Shown piece after piece: positions 1 through 11,067 of a stretch of 11,278 nucleotides of DNA (position 1 is the stretch's first letter; each line of letters begins with the position of its first letter). The position numbers were made by a program, and so were the translations under genes. The stretch covers positions 1-11,278 of the forward strand of contig JAQGDQ010000965.1 of NCBI GenBank assembly GCA_030141605.1. The letters are read 5' to 3'. The notes beneath the pieces are model-generated. The model did not search any database and was not told the origin of the DNA. It saw nothing but the letters and a program-made list of their open reading frames with translations. The stretch comes from Tubiluchus corallicola (taxonomy: Eukaryota > Animalia > Priapulida).

Positions 1-9
1 TATTCATAT

Positions 10-863
10 GCACAACTCACCTGTCATTATAGCACAACTCACCTGTCATTATAGCACAACTCACCTGTCATTATAGCACAACTCACCTGTCATTATAGCA
101 CAACTCACCAGTCATTATAGCACAACTCACCTGTCATTATAGCACAACTCACCTGTCATTATAGCACAACTCACCTGTCATTATAGCATAACTCAATGTC
201 ATTATAGCACAACTCACCTGTCATTATAGCACAACTCACCTGTCATTATAGCACAACTCACCTGTCATTATAGCACAACTCACCTGTCATTATAGCACAA
301 CTCACCTGTCATTATAGCACAACTCACCAGTCATTATAGCACAACTCACCAGTCATTATAGCACAACTCACCAGTCATTATAGCACAACTCACCTGTCAT
401 TATAGCACAACTCACCAGTCATTATAGCACAACTCACCAGTCATTATAGCACAACTCACCAGTCATTATAGCACAACTCACTTGTCATTATAGCACAACT
501 CACTTGTCATTATAGCACAACTCACTTGTCATTATAGCATAACTCACCTATGTCACCTGTCAACTCATTCGCTCAACTCACCTGTCATTATAGCTCAACT
601 CACCAGTCATTATAGCACAACTCACTTGTCATTATAGCATAACTCACCTATGTCACCTGTCAACTCATTCGCTCAACTCACCTGTCATTATAGCTCAACT
701 CACCTGTCATTATAGCACAACTCACCAGTCATTATAGCACAACTCACCAGTCATTATAGCACAACTCACCAGTCATTATAGCATAACTCACTTGTCATTA
801 TAGCATAACTCACCTGTGTCACCTGTCAACTCATTCGCTCAACTCACCTGTCATTATAGCACA
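10..863. repeat. 22-bp minisatellite (GCACAACTCACCTGTCATTATA)n, ~37 units, derived from the exon/intron junction
   Basis: Directly visible head-to-tail units without spacers. Variants CCTGTC/CCAGTC/CTTGTC occur in blocks. Three 34-bp variant units start at 537, 637 and 803. The last unit overlaps the exon 3' end (848-863). Confidence 0.98.
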
Positions 864-978
864 GTGCTAGTGGCGCCTGGGCGTTGGCCAAGAATGAATT
901 CGTTCGTCCCGGGTGGTCGACGTCGTGGATCACTGCCGCGATCAGTGCTGCCACCTGGTCAACTTTCGTCAGCGTATT
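848..978 (-). CDS. PDE8: PDE8 catalytic-domain exon: [43 protein letters not shown](R/S)
   Basis: Manual translation, absent from the ORF track. Acceptor gctttcAG|AAT at 979/978, donor CAG|GTGAGT at 848/847; 131 nt (phase 0 to 2). Contains the PDEase I signature HDxDHPGxxN and LA..YND. Confidence 0.96.
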
Positions 979-1090
979 CTGAAAGCATAGCGAAGCGATA
1001 CATTACTGATAACTTTTGTTTGCGAAGCTTCTCCTTATCGTTACTTTCACGGAAGAAGCTACAGTCACATATGAAGAAAAGCGTCTTATG

Positions 1091-1496
1091 AAACCACTTT
1101 TTCCTCGGACTTCTTATCTGTGGAATTCTCCACCAGAAAATGTTTCCTCTACTAATTACAACCACACTCAATTCAAGAAGATTATCAGTAAATGCTTTCT
1201 ATCAATATCAAAATAAAGGCAAATATGAGCATGAATATATTTAGACATATTTCGCTATGTCAACAAAGCTGATTGAAGAAAAATACATTTAGACAAAAAA
1301 CATTTTTTCCTCGGACACCTTATCTGTGGAATTCTCTACCAGAAATAGTTTTCCCTATCAATTACAGTCTCACCCAATTCAAAATGAACAACAGTAAATG
1401 CTTTCTATCAAGCTGCTAAGGAAACCATTTTTTCCTTGGACTTCGTCTCTGTGGAATTCTCTACCAGAAATAGTTTCCCCTATCAATTACGGCCTC
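1091..1496. repeat. Three diverged direct copies of a ~115-bp unit (third partial)
   Basis: Shared core 'ttttcct(c/t)ggac...tctgtggaattct..accagaaa...aattac'; copies start near 1091, 1298 and 1422. Confidence 0.85.
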
Positions 1497-1662
1497 GTAT
1501 CACTACCAAATTCGTTGTGAATACGAATATGAATATATTTCGCATGAACTTTAGACTTCTCTGCGAACGTTTCCGGCTTTCTATTGCGGCTACTTATCTG
1601 GACTGACCACTGAATGGCCAACGGCCACTCTAGAACAATTGCGATCAACGGGGAATTGTTAC

Positions 1663-1861
1663 CTTTAATTTCTCCCTGTTTAAGAAGTAAGCCGACGCCT
1701 GCAACACGTCGGAGGCGTGGGTGGAATTGTGATATGAGTTCTTGGAGTGGTACCCCGCTTCGATGCGACTCAGCCACGTGTGCAGCATCTTCTCCGGACA
1801 GTTCAGCATCTCGCAGACGCCGAATCGGGCGAATATCTTCAATCCCAAAAACAACAGCGGC
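1663..1861 (-). CDS. PDE8: PDE8 catalytic-domain exon: (R)[15 protein letters not shown]...[34 protein letters not shown]
   Basis: Acceptor ttgccatttcAG|G, donor AAG|GTAACA; 199 nt (phase 2 to 0). Contains the class I PDE YHNxxHxxDV motif. Confidence 0.96.
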
Positions 1862-2102
1862 CTGAAATGGCAAGAAAATAGGACGTTATCAGGGATGAGA
1901 ATGACAAATTGCAAATAACTCCAATGGGGTTCAAGGGAGCCCCCTTGGAGCCAGCAACAAATTGCAAAAAACTCTGAAACAGGCCGTAGGCAGCAAGAAA
2001 TTGCAATTTTGTGACCATAGAGAGCCTCTAAGTGGACTTAAAATATCAATTACCTTGTTTCATGCATAATTTAAAATACCCAACTATCAAGGATACATGA
2101 TA

Positions 2103-2297
2103 CCTAATTGTCTCAAAAATGCCCAAGTACTGGCCGCTCCTATGCAAAAGTTTATAAAAACTGTCTGCAATTGACTCAAATAACTCCGCACAATTGACTC
2201 TGTATTTTTATACATAGAGATCTACACGTGGTTACACTGATGTACGTGATGTAAACAAAGTGACGGCCTGCCAACTAGCGGTCAGCTTGTGAAATAA
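2103..2297. repeat. Dispersed repeat, direct copy of 4728-5027 (probable transposon relic)
   Basis: 'cctaattgtctcaaaaatg...gcaattgactcaaataact...aattgactct' and 'ggttacactgatgta...gtaaacaaagtgacggcc...caactagcggtcagct' occur at both places. The second copy has ~100 bp more between the two blocks. Confidence 0.85.
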
Positions 2298-2629
2298 TGT
2301 ACTGGGTCCGTAAAAATTTTCTCAACGAATTTACGCGATTTACAAAAATGGCACTACTGGTCTTCCAAAAACTCAGAAAATTCTCATCCCTGCGTTATGC
2401 ATCACGGTGCAATCATCATGTCGTTAAAAACAGCAAAAAAGAAAATGAAAAAACTAATTAGTTACTTGGTCTATAAAATCTGGCTGACATGTACAGCACT
2501 TTTTTCGTAAAAGAAACAGCAGAAACCTCGAGGTTGCAATGATAGCCTCTTAATAATAGCCGTAATTGATGGAAATTATAATAAATTGGAACTACGCTTG
2601 GTGCTGATATATATGATGTTAAAGCGTGC

Positions 2630-2960
2630 CTGATTAAAGGAAGACAGGATGATTTTTCAAACACTATCCCATTTTCAAGTCCGATAAAAAGTATACATTT
2701 TAACACAATTAATACTGCAAAAGCGCTTCTGATGATAAATTAATTGATTAAAAAGCTTAATAAATGGTGTGTGACCCCAACTGTTGATCACATCACAAAC
2801 TAACATAATTTTCAGCAGCAAAAAATTCCACCAGCGTGTTGCACGTGTTCACAAAAGCGAAAATTAAAGTACAGCGCTACCATAAGACATTCAGTGTGTT
2901 GTACTAAAATTAGGCAAGTTTTAAGATAAAAATTCAAGTTTCTAATTCTAAAATGCACGA
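2630..2960. repeat. Dispersed repeat, inverted relative to 10218-10510
   Basis: 2776-2942 is the reverse complement of 10244-10413, including a 49-nt core (2889-2937) with one mismatch. Weaker gapped similarity extends further out. Confidence 0.88.
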
Positions 2961-3291
2961 GCTGTAGAACGTGTGTAGTTTGTCACAAACTAACACATCT
3001 GAACCGAGCGGTACGGCACCTGTTTTTTGCGCAATGCATTTCCGAAATGCAGGCGCTAGTGAATGGCGAAATGCATGTAACAGCGAAGAACTAGTGGCGC
3101 GAACGTGAAATTGTGTTTGTGTGGTAACAATTCTTTCACGTAAGTCATTTTTGTTGAAAAGATAGAATGTTTCATTTCAATATTTTAAAGAATAGATTGT
3201 TTTGACTTACGGTTTAAGATTGGATCTGGGTTTTGCTTTACTTATATATAGAAAATTAATAGGAATAGTATGAATGTAAACTTACACAGCT

Positions 3292-3492
3292 TATTTATCT
3301 TCTTACAAGACGACTGTATATATATATATCCCTTATATTAATATTCTTGGTATATATATTTATTTATATATAAGATTCGAGGCTTCGACGACGGCACCAT
3401 TTGCAGCGATCTATACATCAAACGAAAGGTCTCGATCTAGTGTCGTCCCCTTATATATATATATATTCAGTCGTCTTGTAACAAGATAAATA
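3292..3492. mobile_element. ~200-bp MITE-like element with ~38-bp terminal inverted repeats
   Basis: tatttatcttcttacaagacgactgtatatatatatat (from 3292) versus atatatatatattcagtcgtcttgtaacaagataaata (to 3492), two mismatches; TA at both ends. Confidence 0.75.
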
Positions 3493-3650
3493 CATATATA
3501 TGTATATGTATATGTGTATGTGTATATACATATACATATATATATATATACACATATATATATATATACATATGCATATATACATGTATACCATAAACAA
3601 TTTGAAATTATAGAAAATACATATATACATGTGAGTTTTTCTATATCATA
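3491..3650. repeat. (AT)n/(ATAC)n-type compound microsatellite
   Basis: Low-complexity alternating purine-pyrimidine run, just downstream of the 3671 donor in transcript orientation. Confidence 0.85.
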
Positions 3651-3670
3651 TATAAATTTCGAATAATTAC

Positions 3671-4032
3671 CGTTTATCAGTTAGCTTTTCTAACTGAATA
3701 ACATTAATACTCCATTGGTCGTCTCTTTCTAATATCTTTTGCACCTCTGGAGACGACTTCAACGTCAGTAGCGTGGGCGGCAATGCCGACGTCAGTCCGT
3801 GCTGTGCCCTCATATGCATCTCGTGTCCCGGGGAGGCCGGCAACGAATGCTTCTTGTAGGTGCGGGCCATCAGACCGTCCATGTAGTCGGCCGTCATCTC
3901 GTCGTGTTCCAACACGTTCTCGTTCAGCGGCGAGTACAGTTCGGACGATCGCAGGATGTCCAAGACTTTGTCCAGTAGAGGCACTACAGTCCCGGGACAG
4001 TTCTCTTGCACGGCACTAATGATATTTACAAC
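3671..4032 (-). CDS. PDE8: PDE8 internal exon: VVNIISAVQENCPGTVVPLLDKVLDILRSSELYSP...QWSINVIQLEKLTDK(R)
   Basis: Acceptor ttatgtttccAG|GTT, donor CG|GTAATT; 362 nt (phase 0 to 2). Continues the PDE8 motif (V.NII.A.QE..P...LD.VL.ILR..ELYSP) and reaches the W.F.I..LE-type start of the catalytic domain. Confidence 0.95.
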
Positions 4033-4051
4033 CTGGAAACATAAATGTAGT

Positions 4052-4133
4052 TGACACTTCCGTGCCACCAAATAGATAGTATCACACAAAATTACGAGTA
4101 TTCGTGACACTTCAGTGCCACCAAATGGATAGT
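4052..4133. repeat. 29-bp direct repeat pair inside the 137-bp intron
   Basis: tgacacttccgtgccaccaaatagatagt (4052-4080) and tgacacttcagtgccaccaaatggatagt (4105-4133), two mismatches. Confidence 0.85.
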
Positions 4134-4169
4134 TGGTACCAAAACAGATGAAGAGAGAAAAAAACCTAC

Positions 4170-4246
4170 CTTTGTTATTGGCGCTTCTATGGTCATAGAG
4201 TGAATCCTCGCCATAGACTGACGGCGTGATAACGGATGCATACCAC
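4170..4246 (-). CDS. PDE8: PDE8 internal exon: GMHPLSRRQSMARIHSMTIEAPITK
   Basis: Acceptor ttttcaatacAG|GT, donor AAG|GTAGGT; 77 nt (phase 1 to 0). SMARIHSMTIEAPITK is the PDE8-specific conserved motif upstream of the catalytic domain. Confidence 0.95.
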
Positions 4247-4594
4247 CTGTATTGAAAAGAGAAAAAAATCGATCACCATTACGTAAAAAAATGATGAACA
4301 CAAATACTCAAAAACCAAAAACAATAGCAGAACTCTTTGATTCAAGCTGCAGACTTAAAAGCGAGTTAAAAACGGAATCGCTGTTCGTTAAAAAATATGA
4401 AATTTTCATCGTGCGAAAGTCCGATTTATAAAACTTTATATAACTGAAAACTTGTAATTACATTTAGACTGATTTAAGAAAAATGAAATTTGCTTAGATA
4501 CAAAAATTTATCAACCTTACTAATTTTCACTTTGTGCAAATCCTGTTTAAGCTATTCGTGCAGTTTGTGTCCTTGCAGATAGGACAATGAAATA

Positions 4595-5131
4595 AACTCA
4601 TATCTCGGTTTGCCGGACAAAAGCGGGGAGCCGTCGGTCCGAATTTGACGAATGTCCGTAGTTACCGATACTAAGCAAATACAGTAGGTGCCCATGCATT
4701 AGACTCACGGTAATGTAGAATCAATCTCCTAATTGTCTCAAAAATGTTTAGTACGGGCCGCTTCTACGCAAAAGTATATAAAAACTGTCGGCAATTGACT
4801 CAAATAACTGCGCATAATTGACTCTATATTTTTTCTGCACATGCTTAAATAAATATGTGCGACCAATGAGATTTTACTATTTCTATATCGTCTTACTTTG
4901 CTTTTTTACGCTATATACGTAGAAACAATCAGGTCAAGTACAGTTCATTACACGCTGCTTGGTTACACTGATGTAATGACGTAAACAAAGTGACGGCCCG
5001 ACAACTAGCGGTCAGCTCGCGAAATAAACAACGGACTCTGTTCATAGTATGTGGGACTTTCTAATGCTCCAGATTTGTCCGTTTCTACGGGTATCCGTAA
5101 AAGCGAAGTCCGGCGAACAGAGATATGAGTG
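4595..5131. mobile_element. Putative non-autonomous DNA transposon with a 23-bp inverted repeat, family unassigned
   Basis: actcatatctcggtttgccggac (4596-4618) versus gtccggcgaacagagatatgagt (5108-5130), 21/23 match. The interior is shared with 2103-2297. These repeats may be subterminal rather than terminal. Confidence 0.55.
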
Positions 5132-5329: not shown

Positions 5330-5942
5330 CCTTTTGCGCGGGTTCATGAAAAACTGCCGTCACAGAGCAGCGATCTCATTATATTTGATAATTTTTGTAG
5401 TTTTCTACTCCTCACACAGTGGATTTTCATAAAATTATACACGAAATGCATTTGCTTACCTTGGTCAAATTAAAAATCGATTTTTGATGCGACAAAAATG
5501 AAAAAGGCTTTCAGTAACTGCAGTGTTTGCACTGTAACAATGTACAGTATCACTTGTGTGAAATCGGCTAATGCAGAAAATTTCAACTATACAGGTACAA
5601 CACTCTGATAAAATTTGGCCTCAAATCTACTCTATTTCTAAGGAGAAATTCCTGTTAAAAGATGAAATGACCTTAATTTATCCTTGGCTGATTGGCTGTT
5701 TTTTTTTTCTGGAACTCTGTACAGCAGACAGTTCTCTTGGGCTGTAGCAAGCAGGCAATCAATAAAATTGTGTGTACGATCACGCATGTGTACACCAGAC
5801 TACGCTACTCGATAAGCCAAGTTGGAGTGCCCAAAAGGGCGTGCTCATCTTAATTTTATCCAATTAAATCACTTAAGCAAATAGCACGATTGGATAGACG
5901 AGATTCTCCTGAATAGAACAGTGCCTAATTTGTAATTTCCAA

Positions 5943-6270
5943 CATGTCTACTAACCCTAACCATTCTTTCATTCACTCATTTCTGCCACCCCTTCCTTCT
6001 TCCTATCCCTAATCTTACTATTTTTTTCCATTCCATCATGTCTACTAACCCTAACCATTCTTTCATTCACTCATCCTCCCCTCCCTTCCTTCTTCCTATC
6101 CCTAATCTTACTATTTTTTCCATTCCATCATGTCTACTAACCCTAACCATTCTTTCAATCACTCATCCTCCCCTCCCTTCCTTCTTCCCATCCCTAATCT
6201 TAATATTTTTCCATTCCATCATGTCTACTAATCCTAACCATTCTTTCATTCACTCATCTGTGCCACCCTA
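5943..6270. repeat. ~92-bp pyrimidine-rich tandem repeat, ~3.5 copies
   Basis: Units begin 'catgtctactaa(c/t)cctaaccattctttca' at 5943, 6037, 6129 and 6220. Confidence 0.95.
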
Positions 6271-6842: not shown

Positions 6843-7092
6843 ATTACAACTACGTGTAAAAATTAATTTATTCGAGGACTCGGCAGCAATTAACCCTTAC
6901 AGGGTCACGATTTTTTACGACCAATTTTGGTAACCGGGGGGGGGGGGTTGTGTAAAAAATTACCCCCACCATAATTCGTAATTTACTTTCGATAAACCGC
7001 CGTGTTTCATTAGTAAACAGCAACAGCATAATTTGTGGTTATGTTGACCACCATAGGATACATTATACCTCTGCTTAAACACATGTGACTTA

Positions 7093-7484
7093 CCGTATTT
7101 TCCCGTGTATAAGAGACCCTTTTTTGCTCAGAATTTTCACTTTAAAAATAGGGTGTCTCTTATACATGGGAGTAAGTCCAGAATGGAATGGTGTAAAGCC
7201 AAAGGTCATTATTAAATCTTTCAAGAAGTGTGGCATCTCCAATGCCATGGACGGCACAGAGGACAATGCCATTTTTGAACAGAGTGACTCCTCTGATGAT
7301 GAACTGGCTGGAATTGCTGAAGGTCTGACTCCAGTTGATATTTTTGATGAGAGTGATGAGGAATTTAATGATTTCTATGATGAATAAAGTTATTCATTAC
7401 CAAAAAACTTTTTTCCAGAATTTTTGCCTAAAAATTGAAGGGGTCTCTTATACACAAGGGTCTCTTATACATGGGAAAATACGG
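7093..7484 (+). mobile_element. Internally deleted pogo/Tc2-type (Tc1/mariner superfamily) DNA transposon retaining the transposase C-terminus
   Basis: TIRs CCGTATTTTCCCGTGTATAAGAGACCC / GGGTCTCTTATACATGGGAAAATACGG (26/27), TA on both sides (7091-92, 7485-86), extra subterminal TCTCTTATACA copies. Frame ~7181-7387 reads W..V..KVIIKSFKKCGISNAMDGTEDNAIF plus an acidic tail, typical of pogo-family transposase C-termini. Confidence 0.9.
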
Positions 7485-7605
7485 TACTAGTAATATGAAA
7501 TTTAAATTCACTTAGTTACGTTCCCTTATCTATGCTGGAATAACTGTAGACAACCGACATTGCAACGCCTGTGCAAAAATCATTGTTATTTTGAATTTGT
7601 TGTCT

Positions 7606-8486: not shown

Positions 8487-9378
8487 TTAATACCGGGCAG
8501 CAAGAGACCACAAGAAGCCATGCGCTCAGAGGTAAAATCGGGATTTGAATAGCAGGAGGAAGAAAACCGACCTCACGACTTCCGCGAGCAAACTTTAGAC
8601 GAGACAAAAGCGGCGCACACAACTGAAGAGCTAAACAGCAAACACAGTAGATGAACACGTGCTTTCCTCGACAAAGCAAAAGGCTTAGCTGAAACAATTC
8701 AAATAGAGTCTAAGCTGAAAAGAATCAATAAAAAACATCTAAAAACACAAAAACAAACTTTAAACAGAGTGTGCAACAGATATCACAGTTTTCGTTCAGA
8801 CTGTCACTTATTTCCTCCAGACTGTTGAAAAATCACTGTCACTCAAAAGCACAAATCCTTTAATTATTTGAGAACCTTTACTATCAACACGAACATCCTT
8901 ACTACTGCATGCCTACTACTTTCTTGATCGCCTAGCATTGATCTTGACTGACAGTGATTAGTCGTCTGCGAGAACGCATGACAGTCCGTACAGCACAGTG
9001 CAGAACGGCACGACACACAGGGGTGCGATTTAGCACTAACCCTCACTGCTGATTGATCGTACGTCCCCGGAGAGCTTATACAGCGAACGTATGCTATTGC
9101 GCCTCATGTGGAGTTCTAGATGAACGCACAAAAACAAGCAACGAAAATGTTAGTAAACAAACAATTATGTCACGTAAGATAAGCATTCATGTTACGGCAC
9201 GCACTGCCTTGTCATGCTAGCCTTGCAAACCATGCTTTTGTAAACCGCAGGGCACAACTAAGACACATCTCTCAACCTACTGAAACAAGAGGTCGATATA
9301 AAGAAGAAATAATACGGGCCCTAGTCCTGATCCCCGAGGGACACCATTGCTCCATGCTCCAACTAACACAATTTACTC

Positions 9379-9919: not shown

Positions 9920-10029
9920 CATTAGGAAAGGTGACCATGTCGGCGTCCTTGAGGCTTGTGAGGCTCTGTATCGTCGAGTCTGCTGTCAGCTCGTCTTTAT
10001 GCTTAAGATACACGTAGTGACTCACTCTC
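9920..10029 (-). CDS. PDE8: PDE8-family phosphodiesterase, internal exon (probable end of PAS region plus linker): (G)RVSHYVYLKHKDELTADSTIQSLTSLKDADMVTFPN(G)
   Basis: Strong acceptor tttttttcttctttAG|G at 10030/10029 (phase 2). Donor AATG|GTAAGA at 9920, with an alternative at 9911 (both phase 1), matching the phase-1 start of the exon at 4246. 'RVSHYVYL' resembles the 'GKIRHYVSI' end of the vertebrate PDE8A PAS/PAC region as I recall it. An extra small exon in 4247-9910 is not excluded. Confidence 0.75.
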
Positions 10030-10083
10030 CTAAAGAAGAAAAAAACAAATCTCTTCCATGTCAAAAACACGTGGCTAATAATA

Positions 10084-10218
10084 AAGTTAATGCCATTAGG
10101 GTAAAATGGAACACTGCTTATAGAAAAATATTCGATTTTAGACAAAATGAAAGCATCAAATTGTTATTGCATCAAAATGTATTTTTGTGGCACAATGCCT
10201 GTGAATTATTAAACAGAT
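10084..10218 (+). repeat. Frameshifted partial duplicate of the LINE-like fragment at 10571
   Basis: aagttaatgcc(a/g)ttagggtaaaatggaacactgcttatagaaaaatattcg... repeated at 10571; this copy has a 10-bp insertion (ttgcatcaaa). Confidence 0.9.
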
Positions 10219-10510
10219 CGTGCGCGAGTATAGCCTTAAATATGAAATTTGAATTTTTATCTTAAAACTTGCCTAGTTTTAGTACAACACACTGAATATC
10301 TTACAGTAGCACTGTACTTCAATTTTCCCTTTCGCAAACACGTGCAACACGTCTTCGTGGTATATTTTTGCTGTTGACAATTATGTTAGTTTGTGATGTC
10401 ATCAATAGTTGGGCTCGCCAATTAGGTTCGCTCTTGGATTATCATTTGTATAAAAATGTGTACTTTTGAAGATGGGATAGTATATGAAAAATCTTCCTTT
10501 AAAGTCAGGA
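10218..10510. repeat. Dispersed repeat, inverted partner of 2630-2960
   Basis: Reverse-complement match to 2776-2942 (see that feature). Confidence 0.88.
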
Positions 10511-10563: not shown

Positions 10564-11067
10564 AACAATGAAGTTAATGCCGTTAGGGTAAAATGGAACA
10601 CTGCTTATAGAAAAATATTCGGTTTAAGACAAAACGAAAGCGGCAAATTGTTAATGTATTTTTGTGGCACAATGCCTGCGAATTATTTAATAGATAGTCG
10701 AAAATTAAACTTTGTGAGAAAAATTGTAAACTCTTGCACATTGAGAATTCCAAAGCTATGCTACTATGTAAATAACAGTCAAGTAAATTTAAGATTTAAA
10801 TATGGTTGTACTGTAGATCTAAACGAAAATGTAAAATTAAAAAAGGTTAAGAACTCATTTAAAGATTATGTTTTAAGATATCTATTATAGCTCCTTACAA
10901 CACTGTATAATGTAATATAATTACAAGGGAACTACAATGTGTGGTTATTATAAAGTTGAATGTCTGTAGATATGTTACTTTACTAATATCGCATTACCTG
11001 TTTTACTAACATCTTTCTTTTTGTAAACTGCATATTTTTATGCGAAACAAACTCATAATAATAATTA
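10564..11067 (+). mobile_element. Probable 5'-truncated non-LTR retrotransposon (LINE) 3' end
   Basis: Open frame 10564-10890 (VNAVRVKWNTAYRKIFGLRQNESGKLLMYFCGTMPANYLIDSRKLNF...) resembles the post-RT C-terminal region of invertebrate LINE ORF2 proteins (recognised from memory). It is followed by an AT-rich 3' UTR-like tract and a short (TAA)n tail near 11056-11067. Confidence 0.6.

What the first reader, a model, noticed from the sequence alone, without database searches (positions are those of the whole stretch)
10..863. A minisatellite made of the 5' splice site itself: ~35 tandem decoy donors behind a PDE8 catalytic exon
Seen: on the coding strand the 22-nt unit is TGTGCTATAATGACAG|GTGAGT, exactly the last 16 nt of exon 978-848 plus the first 6 nt of the intron. 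By manual count 36 of 37 units keep GTGAGT and about 18, including the real donor, keep the full CAG|GTGAGT. Known: CAG|GTRAGT is the optimal U1 snRNA-pairing sequence, and competing strong donors often favour intron-proximal sites. Seen: reading past the first donor gives GAC AGG TGA, so using any downstream copy puts a stop inside the catalytic domain. Inference: either the spliceosome reliably picks the most 5' of many equal sites (e.g. by exon definition or co-transcriptional commitment), or the array acts as a copy-number-tunable U1 sink or NMD-coupled rheostat on PDE8 output.
Basis: partly seen in the sequence, partly recalled or inferred. Interest (0 to 1): 0.85.

Follow-up and report, generated by a model that had tools for sequence, protein, structure and literature searches.

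The report
Repeated splice donor in PDE8 intron
The last 16 bases of one exon of an animal (likely priapulid worm) PDE8 gene, together with its splice signal, are repeated 36 more times in the next intron; this is a new case of a repeat type already known from human and lancelet genes, and the extra signals are likely mostly ignored.

Summary
Window 10-863 (minus strand) is a 22-nt minisatellite of 37 blocks. The first block is the last 16 nt of a PDE8 catalytic exon plus GTGAGT; 36 blocks keep GTGAGT and 18 keep CAG|GTGAGT. All 38 downstream candidate donors would add the same in-frame stop. Contigs of two runs of one sample bridge exon and array. Unit orders absent from the window occur in two samples, so the array is real and variable; its full length was not verifiable.

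It is not a new kind. Human F7, IFI6, CBS and ABCA7 VNTRs and amphioxus 'mirages' have the same anatomy, and this scan noted it on other DNA (21 findings, at least 11 genomes). In the published cases the first donor dominates, with at most slight leak. GTGAGT is no better kept than the rest of the unit, and the stop is generic to this phase-2 intron, so a U1 sink or rheostat has no support.

One real peculiarity: 17 decoys have the perfect donor motif, the only one that competed in F7 minigenes. No RNA holder was listed, so donor choice is untested.

The parts
848..978 (-). PDE8 catalytic-domain exon (131 nt, phase 0 in, phase 2 out; carries the HD metal-binding motif, ends ...LCYND-AG)
   Evidence: Pfam PF00233 E 1e-14; best PDB hit PDE8A; 86% identical to Priapulus caudatus PDE8 P0010, which continues LCYND-R; phases
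842..863 (-). First repeat unit: last 16 nt of the exon plus GTGAGT; authentic donor GT at 847-846
   Evidence: junction bridged by X1 contig 813-1117 and X2 contig 785-1101
10..863 (-). 22-nt minisatellite, 37 blocks (33 regular, 1 shortened, 3 rearranged 34-nt blocks) plus a 5-nt partial unit; 35 downstream GTGAGT, 17 of them CAG|GTGAGT
844..846 (-). In-frame TGA reached by any read-through of the authentic donor
   Evidence: 38 of 38 downstream donors include it
808..841 (-). Rearranged 34-nt block directly behind the true donor; recurs at 642-675 and 542-575 as part of a 100-nt higher-order unit
1..14 (-). Array end: TGTGC, then 9 nt that are either unique intron flank (5-nt microhomology with the exon side) or a decayed unit
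   Evidence: only 9 nt of flank lie in the window, so the two readings cannot be told apart
1663..1861 (-). Preceding PDE8 catalytic exon (199 nt, phase 2 in, 0 out)
   Evidence: PDE8A E 4e-26 against next family (PDE7A) 4e-07
3671..4032 (-). PDE8 exon (362 nt)
   Evidence: tblastn with PDE8 homologues; open in the expected phase
4170..4246 (-). PDE8 exon (77 nt)
9041..9115 (-). Likely PDE8 exon (75 nt)
   Evidence: tblastn with P0010, E 0.001. One search was run with the end one base off and printed a wrong frame; 9041 is read by eye from the GTTAGT in its output
9920..10029 (-). Likely PDE8 exon (110 nt)
   Evidence: tblastn with P0010, E 0.017; open frame

Best explanation
This is a minisatellite whose first 22-nt unit spans a PDE8 exon end and its splice donor; it likely arose by slippage at the exon-intron junction, likely grows and reshuffles as a near-neutral repeat, and is likely spliced out whole from the first donor. 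Shown: the anatomy, the gene, the stop on read-through, and variable unit order between samples. Inferred: (1) birth by slipped replication between two short TGTGC repeats 22 nt apart; (2) growth and turnover by further slippage or unequal exchange, which produced variant units and a 100-nt higher-order unit; (3) use of the first donor because it is transcribed first and closes a normal 131-nt exon, and because neighbours only 22 nt apart would crowd U1; (4) rare use of a nearby copy would yield a stop-bearing mRNA that NMD would likely remove.
For: Same anatomy as F7 IVS7, IFI6 (25 pseudo-sites), CBS, LMNB2 and PDGF, where only the first donor, or the first plus the two nearest, is used, and as amphioxus mirages, reported not to disturb splicing. 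In ABCA7, one-unit retention gives a PTC, appears to be the ~2% isoform by the order of listing, and does not change with VNTR length. No special conservation of the donor: non-donor positions 4-14 are invariant in 33 of 33 units; 3 of 5 independent unit variants fall in the 9 donor positions, P=0.33. The coding exon end is intact and shared with P. caudatus (LCYND-R), and the four exons checked in their correct phase are open, so the gene looks functional. Three contig junctions in runs X1 and X3 match no place in the window, as expected of a VNTR. An unrelated 92-nt minisatellite sits mid-intron in the same gene.
Against: The authentic donor and 17 decoys share CAG|GTGAGT. This is the CV-100 motif that took 70-90% of splicing from a weaker (CV 74) upstream site in F7 minigenes; the all-perfect case was not tested in the sections read. 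In HeLa systems two strong sites 45 nt or more apart are used ~100% at the intron-proximal one. Even the CTG| copies pair with U1 (-9.2 kcal/mol) better than 3 of the 4 other donors scored in this gene. All mechanistic precedents are mammalian or cephalochordate. The microhomology rests on 9 nt of flank.
Confidence: 0.75

Rival explanations
1. Leaky by-product: the perfect decoys take a sizeable share of splicing, so PDE8 output falls with the number or placement of perfect units, without having been selected for it. Selection then weakens the copies nearest the exon.
For: The perfect motif competes in F7; intron-proximal bias for strong sites; IFI6 and CBS use nearby pseudo-sites; ABCA7 VNTR length changes skipping of the next exon. 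CAG| stands in 5 of the first 20 downstream GTGAGT but 12 of the last 15, and only 1 of the 5 GTGAGT within 143 nt of the true donor is perfect.
Against: The polarity test (Fisher P=0.002) is not valid: units copy one another and the split was chosen after looking. The nearest GTGAGT (+34) is itself perfect. Variant placement within the unit is not biased (P=0.33).
Confidence: 0.15
2. Selected regulatory device: a copy-number-tuned U1 sink or NMD-coupled rheostat on PDE8.
For: 38 of 38 downstream donors give a PTC about 214 residues before the end of the P. caudatus homologue. The array varies between samples.
Against: The stop is generic to this conserved phase-2 intron (15 of 150 hits end one residue after YND). 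No selective retention of the donor. About 36 sites on one pre-mRNA are negligible against the nuclear U1 pool (recalled knowledge, not from a call).
Confidence: 0.03
3. Ratchet ladder: each CAG|GT unit can serve as an acceptor and then regenerate the donor, so the array is removed by recursive splicing, which would give the same mRNA.
For: 22 AG|GTGA sites lie in the array. Splicing the true donor to a CAG|GTGAGT would re-create the identical junction (seen in the sequence).
Against: No pyrimidine tract: 6-7 pyrimidines of 17 before the array AGs, against 11-16 of 17 at the five real acceptors scored. A spacing of 22 nt leaves little room for a branch point.
Confidence: 0.03
4. The array, or most of its length, is an assembly artefact.
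For: Its 854-nt length and far end could not be checked; the array ends 9 nt from the window edge.
Against: X1 and X2 contigs bridge the exon-array junction with 35 and 63 letters on the array side. Unit contigs in X1 reach depths of 350-750 against 184 for the exon contig (qualitative only). A second sample and study (X3) holds unit contigs. Eleven distinct unit types are not what a collapsed or stuttered read gives. X1 and X2 are one sample and may be the source of the assembly.
Confidence: 0.04

Closest known systems
Human F7 IVS7 37-bp VNTR (Borensztajn et al. 2006, PMC1557585; read: abstract, introduction, results section 9, discussion)
   Same: The first monomer spans exon end and donor; identical pseudo-donors follow; the array is polymorphic.
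   Different: F7 has 5-9 units, 4 exonic nt and a mediocre donor (CV 74). Here there are 37 blocks, 16 exonic nt, a 22-nt pitch, and 18 copies of the CV-100 motif CAG|GTGAGT.
Human IFI6 (6-16) intron 2, CBS IVS13, LMNB2 and PDGF intron 4 minisatellites (second-hand, from the introduction of PMC1557585; originals not read)
   Same: 10-25 repeated donors behind an authentic one; IFI6, with 25 pseudo-sites, is closest in number.
   Different: There, RNA shows either only the first donor, or the first plus two near copies, in use. Here use is untested, and every downstream donor gives a stop.
Amphioxus 'mirage' minisatellites in Adh3, globins BflGb6/BflGb9, troponin C and PGBD5 (PMC3087553: abstract and section 16 read; PMC3902484: passages read)
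   Same: Tandem duplication of an exon-intron boundary in an invertebrate; units 10-160 bp; many keep splice signals; length unstable; reported not to disturb splicing.
   Different: Different phylum (closest protein here is priapulid), different gene, more copies than the globin cases (3-6).
Human ABCA7 intron 18 25-bp VNTR (De Roeck et al. 2018, PMC5954066; passages read)
   Same: The unit begins at the donor; use of the second unit's donor gives a PTC subject to NMD.
   Different: It holds no exonic bases. Its length-dependent effect is skipping of the next exon, not decoy use. No such effect is shown here.

Membership tests
Boundary-spanning minisatellite ('mirage', F7-type VNTR) | Head-to-tail array of a 10-160 bp unit | tested here: met
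   22-nt period, 37 blocks
Boundary-spanning minisatellite ('mirage', F7-type VNTR) | Terminal monomer spans a real exon-intron boundary | tested here: met
   Homology ends at 848 with LCYND-R as in P0010. 25 of 150 hits break off one residue after YND, as expected for a conserved phase-2 intron (32 flagged, 7 dropped by eye as continuing coding sequence; 92 continue; 26 lack the motif). Boundary from homology, not RNA.
Boundary-spanning minisatellite ('mirage', F7-type VNTR) | Many copies keep the splice signal | tested here: met
   36 of 37 GTGAGT, 18 of 37 CAG|GTGAGT
Boundary-spanning minisatellite ('mirage', F7-type VNTR) | Length or internal-order polymorphism | tested here: inconclusive
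   Three unit junctions absent from the window occur in X1/X3 contigs, so internal order varies; copy number could not be measured from short contigs
Boundary-spanning minisatellite ('mirage', F7-type VNTR) | Authentic site dominates in mRNA | not testable with these tools
   No RNA holder was listed
PDE8 (class I cyclic nucleotide phosphodiesterase) | PDEase_I catalytic domain with HD motif, closest to PDE8 | tested here: met
PDE8 (class I cyclic nucleotide phosphodiesterase) | N-terminal REC and PAS domains | not testable with these tools
   They would lie upstream of the window; no genome is held
Recursive splice site (ratchet point) | AG immediately followed by a consensus donor | tested here: met
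   22 AG|GTGA sites in the array
Recursive splice site (ratchet point) | Strong acceptor with a polypyrimidine tract | tested here: not met
   6-7 of 17 pyrimidines against 11-16 of 17 at real acceptors
Regulated unproductive splicing (AS-NMD switch) | Alternative site introduces a PTC upstream of further exon junctions | tested here: met
   38 of 38 donors; downstream exons inferred from 214 further residues in P0010
Regulated unproductive splicing (AS-NMD switch) | Regulated use and cross-species conservation of the switch | not testable with these tools
   No RNA; no relative's intron sequence at this junction was obtained

The most novel reading that the evidence does not exclude
An extreme mirage: 17 perfect donors behind an identical perfect donor, at a 22-nt pitch below the distance at which two U1 particles can both act. 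The array may neutralise itself by U1 crowding while selection weakens the exon-proximal copies, and allele-specific unit order may set the share of stop-bearing PDE8 mRNA. It would then be a natural allelic series for the unresolved conflict between 'first site wins' and 'intron-proximal site wins'.
Probability: 0.1. Interest if true: 0.6.

Novelty: new member of a known kind. Interest (0 to 1): 0.24.

Why it matters
As it stands it is one more example of a described repeat class, extending it to a likely priapulid gene. It would matter more if RNA showed clean first-donor use despite 17 perfect competitors: that is the case which the F7 minigenes (perfect decoys against a weak first site) and the two-site HeLa experiments (intron-proximal wins) leave open. 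It would also matter if decoy use tracked array alleles.

Tried and rejected
Expression and donor use: no RNA holder was listed (6 runs, 4 hold part of the stretch). The one guessed-RNA run X6 laid only on interspersed repeats. Neither is evidence either way.

Relative X5 (same species label, next to none of the words) gave one contig over 933-984 with 2 differences and an unlike upstream intron, and no cover of the donor or array. This is uninformative on presence of the array.

Only 780-863 of the array was included in the stretches laid, so its length and far end stay unchecked. No whole genome is held, so the genome-wide scan for similar arrays could not be run; no earlier notes exist for this genome.

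The idea that array letters had overwritten the coding exon (unusual C before YND; 101 of 102 homologues have L) was rejected: the one exception, P. caudatus PDE8, has the same LCYND-R.

Masking of decoys by RNA structure is not supported: mean unpaired probability is 0.21 at the true donor and 0.24-0.44 at the next five. Special conservation of GTGAGT is not shown; positions 18-22 are invariant by construction of the parse and were not counted as evidence.

A protein search with exon 3673-4029 found nothing. Literature searches on priapulid repeats, PDE8/Priapulus with minisatellite, and genome-wide boundary-spanning repeats listed nothing on this locus (only 15 of 4,910 and 12 of 1,946 hits were listed in the first two; open-access library only). 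Supplements of the papers were not opened.

Full report
OBSERVATION. On the minus strand, window 863->10 is a tandem array. Tandem Repeats Finder reports period 22, 35.7 copies (10-817) and a 100-nt higher-order period over 474-817. Splitting at each TGAGT gives 11 unit types: 33 regular 22-nt units, one 21-nt unit without its GT, and three rearranged 34-nt blocks, 37 blocks in all. The first unit is the last 16 nt of exon 978-848 plus GTGAGT. GTGAGT stands in 36 of 37 blocks and CAG|GTGAGT in 18; the others are CTG| (11), CAA| (5) and TAG| (2). Outside the array GTGAGT occurs twice in 10,408 nt of that strand and CAGGTGAGT never. A 19-nt unit piece matches 33 times with up to two mismatches, against none in 200 shuffles. 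The ladder begins at +25, +34, +56 and +78 rather than +22.

THE GENE. Exons 978-848 and 1861-1663 match Pfam PDEase_I (the second scores below the family cut-off on its own) and, among solved structures, PDE8A best. Hits of the second exon carry PDE8 names or generic phosphodiesterase names. The closest protein to the first exon is Priapulus caudatus PDE8, 86% identical over 42 residues, so the animal is likely a priapulid; this is inference from one protein. tblastn with that protein finds six exons in the window. The four nearest the array are open in consistent phases; the two upstream ones are weaker (E 0.001 and 0.017). The P. caudatus protein reads LCYND-R and runs 214 residues further, which fits a phase-2 donor at 848/847. 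Of 150 hits, 92 continue in frame after YND, 26 lack the motif and 32 were flagged as breaking off. Seven of those 32 I dropped by eye as continuing coding sequence, leaving 25; 15 of them end exactly one residue after YND. These look like exon read-throughs and indicate an old phase-2 intron at this place. They also show that a stop directly behind this donor is generic.

IS IT REAL? No genome is held. Four runs hold part of window 1-4300 and none is on record as RNA. Contigs of X1 (813-1117) and X2 (785-1101), one sample, bridge the exon-array junction. X3, another sample and study, has an exon contig (858-1051) and unit contigs but no bridging piece. In X1, contigs made of units have depths from 5 to 750, three of seven at 350 or more, against 184 for the exon contig (qualitative only). 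Three loose ends in X1 and X3 define unit junctions that match no place in the window: at best 13 of 50, 20 of 33 and 27 of 71 flanking letters. The array is therefore real at its start and variable in unit order. Only 780-863 of it was laid, so total length and far end are unverified.

WHAT DECOY USE WOULD DO. All 38 downstream GTGAGT/GTGAC donors include the TGA at 846-844, and no GT lies before that stop. Any decoy would cut the catalytic domain after the HD motif, and the mRNA would likely be an NMD target (inferred). U1 duplex energies, computed against the complement of a recalled 11-nt consensus, are -12.2 kcal/mol for the true donor and the 17 perfect copies, -10.6 for TAG|, -9.2 for CTG|, -8.1 for GTGAC and -5.7 for CAA|. 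Four other donors of the gene score -5.3 to -10.3. So the decoys are strong. Local folding does not hide them. As acceptors the array AGs are poor.

SIGNS OF FUNCTION. None found. Non-donor positions 4-14 are invariant in 33 of 33 regular units, whereas donor positions -2 and -1 vary in 11 and 5. Three of five independent unit variants touch the nine donor positions (P=0.33). Perfect copies are rarer near the exon (5 of 20) than far from it (12 of 15). The nominal P of 0.002 is not valid, because units copy one another and the split was post hoc. It is a lead only. The coding exon shows no sign of overwriting by array variants.

ORIGIN (inferred). The array ends in TGTGC, the same five letters with which the first unit begins inside the exon. 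That is what slippage between short direct repeats would leave, a route proposed for minisatellites in general (PMC2820488, passage read). With 9 nt of flank, a decayed last unit is equally possible.

WHAT IS KNOWN. PMC1557585 describes the human F7 IVS7 VNTR, whose first unit spans the junction and where only the first donor is used. It lists IFI6 (25 pseudo-sites, two nearest also used), CBS (two also used), LMNB2 and PDGF (first only). Amphioxus 'mirages' are the invertebrate form and are reported not to disturb splicing; I was led to them by earlier notes of this scan, which lists 21 such findings in at least 11 genomes (AI notes, not evidence). In ABCA7, retention of one unit gives a PTC independent of VNTR length, while length drives skipping of the next exon. 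Against my reading: the F7 pseudo-sites competed only when changed to CAG/gtgagt, taking 70-90% from a weaker first site. Two strong sites 45 nt or more apart go ~100% to the intron-proximal one in HeLa systems, an effect that sets in only beyond about 30 nt (PMC3413131, passages read). This array has that perfect motif at both the first and 17 later sites, at a 22-nt pitch, a combination not tested in the sections I read. Searches listed nothing on this locus.

VERDICT. Observation confirmed; interpretation partly supported; new member of a known kind. It is most likely (0.75) a tolerated boundary-spanning minisatellite spliced from its first donor. Appreciable leak 0.15, artefactual length 0.04, selected rheostat or sink 0.03, ratchet ladder 0.03. 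Donor choice itself was not observed. Interest 0.24.

Noticed in passing
window 5937-6258: A 92-nt minisatellite, 3.5 copies, 94% matches, mid-intron and far from any exon found: tandem arrays also arise in this gene away from splice sites.
   Followed up: no
window 7091-7486: A 396-nt element with 31-nt terminal inverted repeats (97% complementary) that begin and end in TA; MITE-like (the class label is recalled).
   Followed up: no
window 1900-2410 and 2590-3270: Very high-copy interspersed repeats (summed contig depth about 10^6 against about 180 at exons in X1); partial further copies at 4750-5027 and, inverted, at 10239-10416.
   Followed up: no
window 1091-1536: Three diverged 115-nt direct repeats in the intron just upstream of the exon.
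   Followed up: no
window 3292-3590: A 38-nt inverted repeat with TA runs, next to a ~100-nt (TA)-rich microsatellite.
   Followed up: no
window 998 and 1085: Runs X1 and X2, listed as one sample, differ at 998; X1, X2 and X3 all differ from the window at 1085. The window is likely another haplotype or individual, or has an error there.
   Followed up: no
window 793-863, run X3 record 13: The exon-end unit followed by the rearranged 34-nt block occurs preceded by another repeat unit: the first blocks of the array have been copied into its interior in that sample, or the reverse.
   Followed up: partly
window 10077-10221 and 10564-10698: A two-copy direct repeat, about 90% alike, 480-490 nt apart, upstream of the first exon found.
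   Followed up: no
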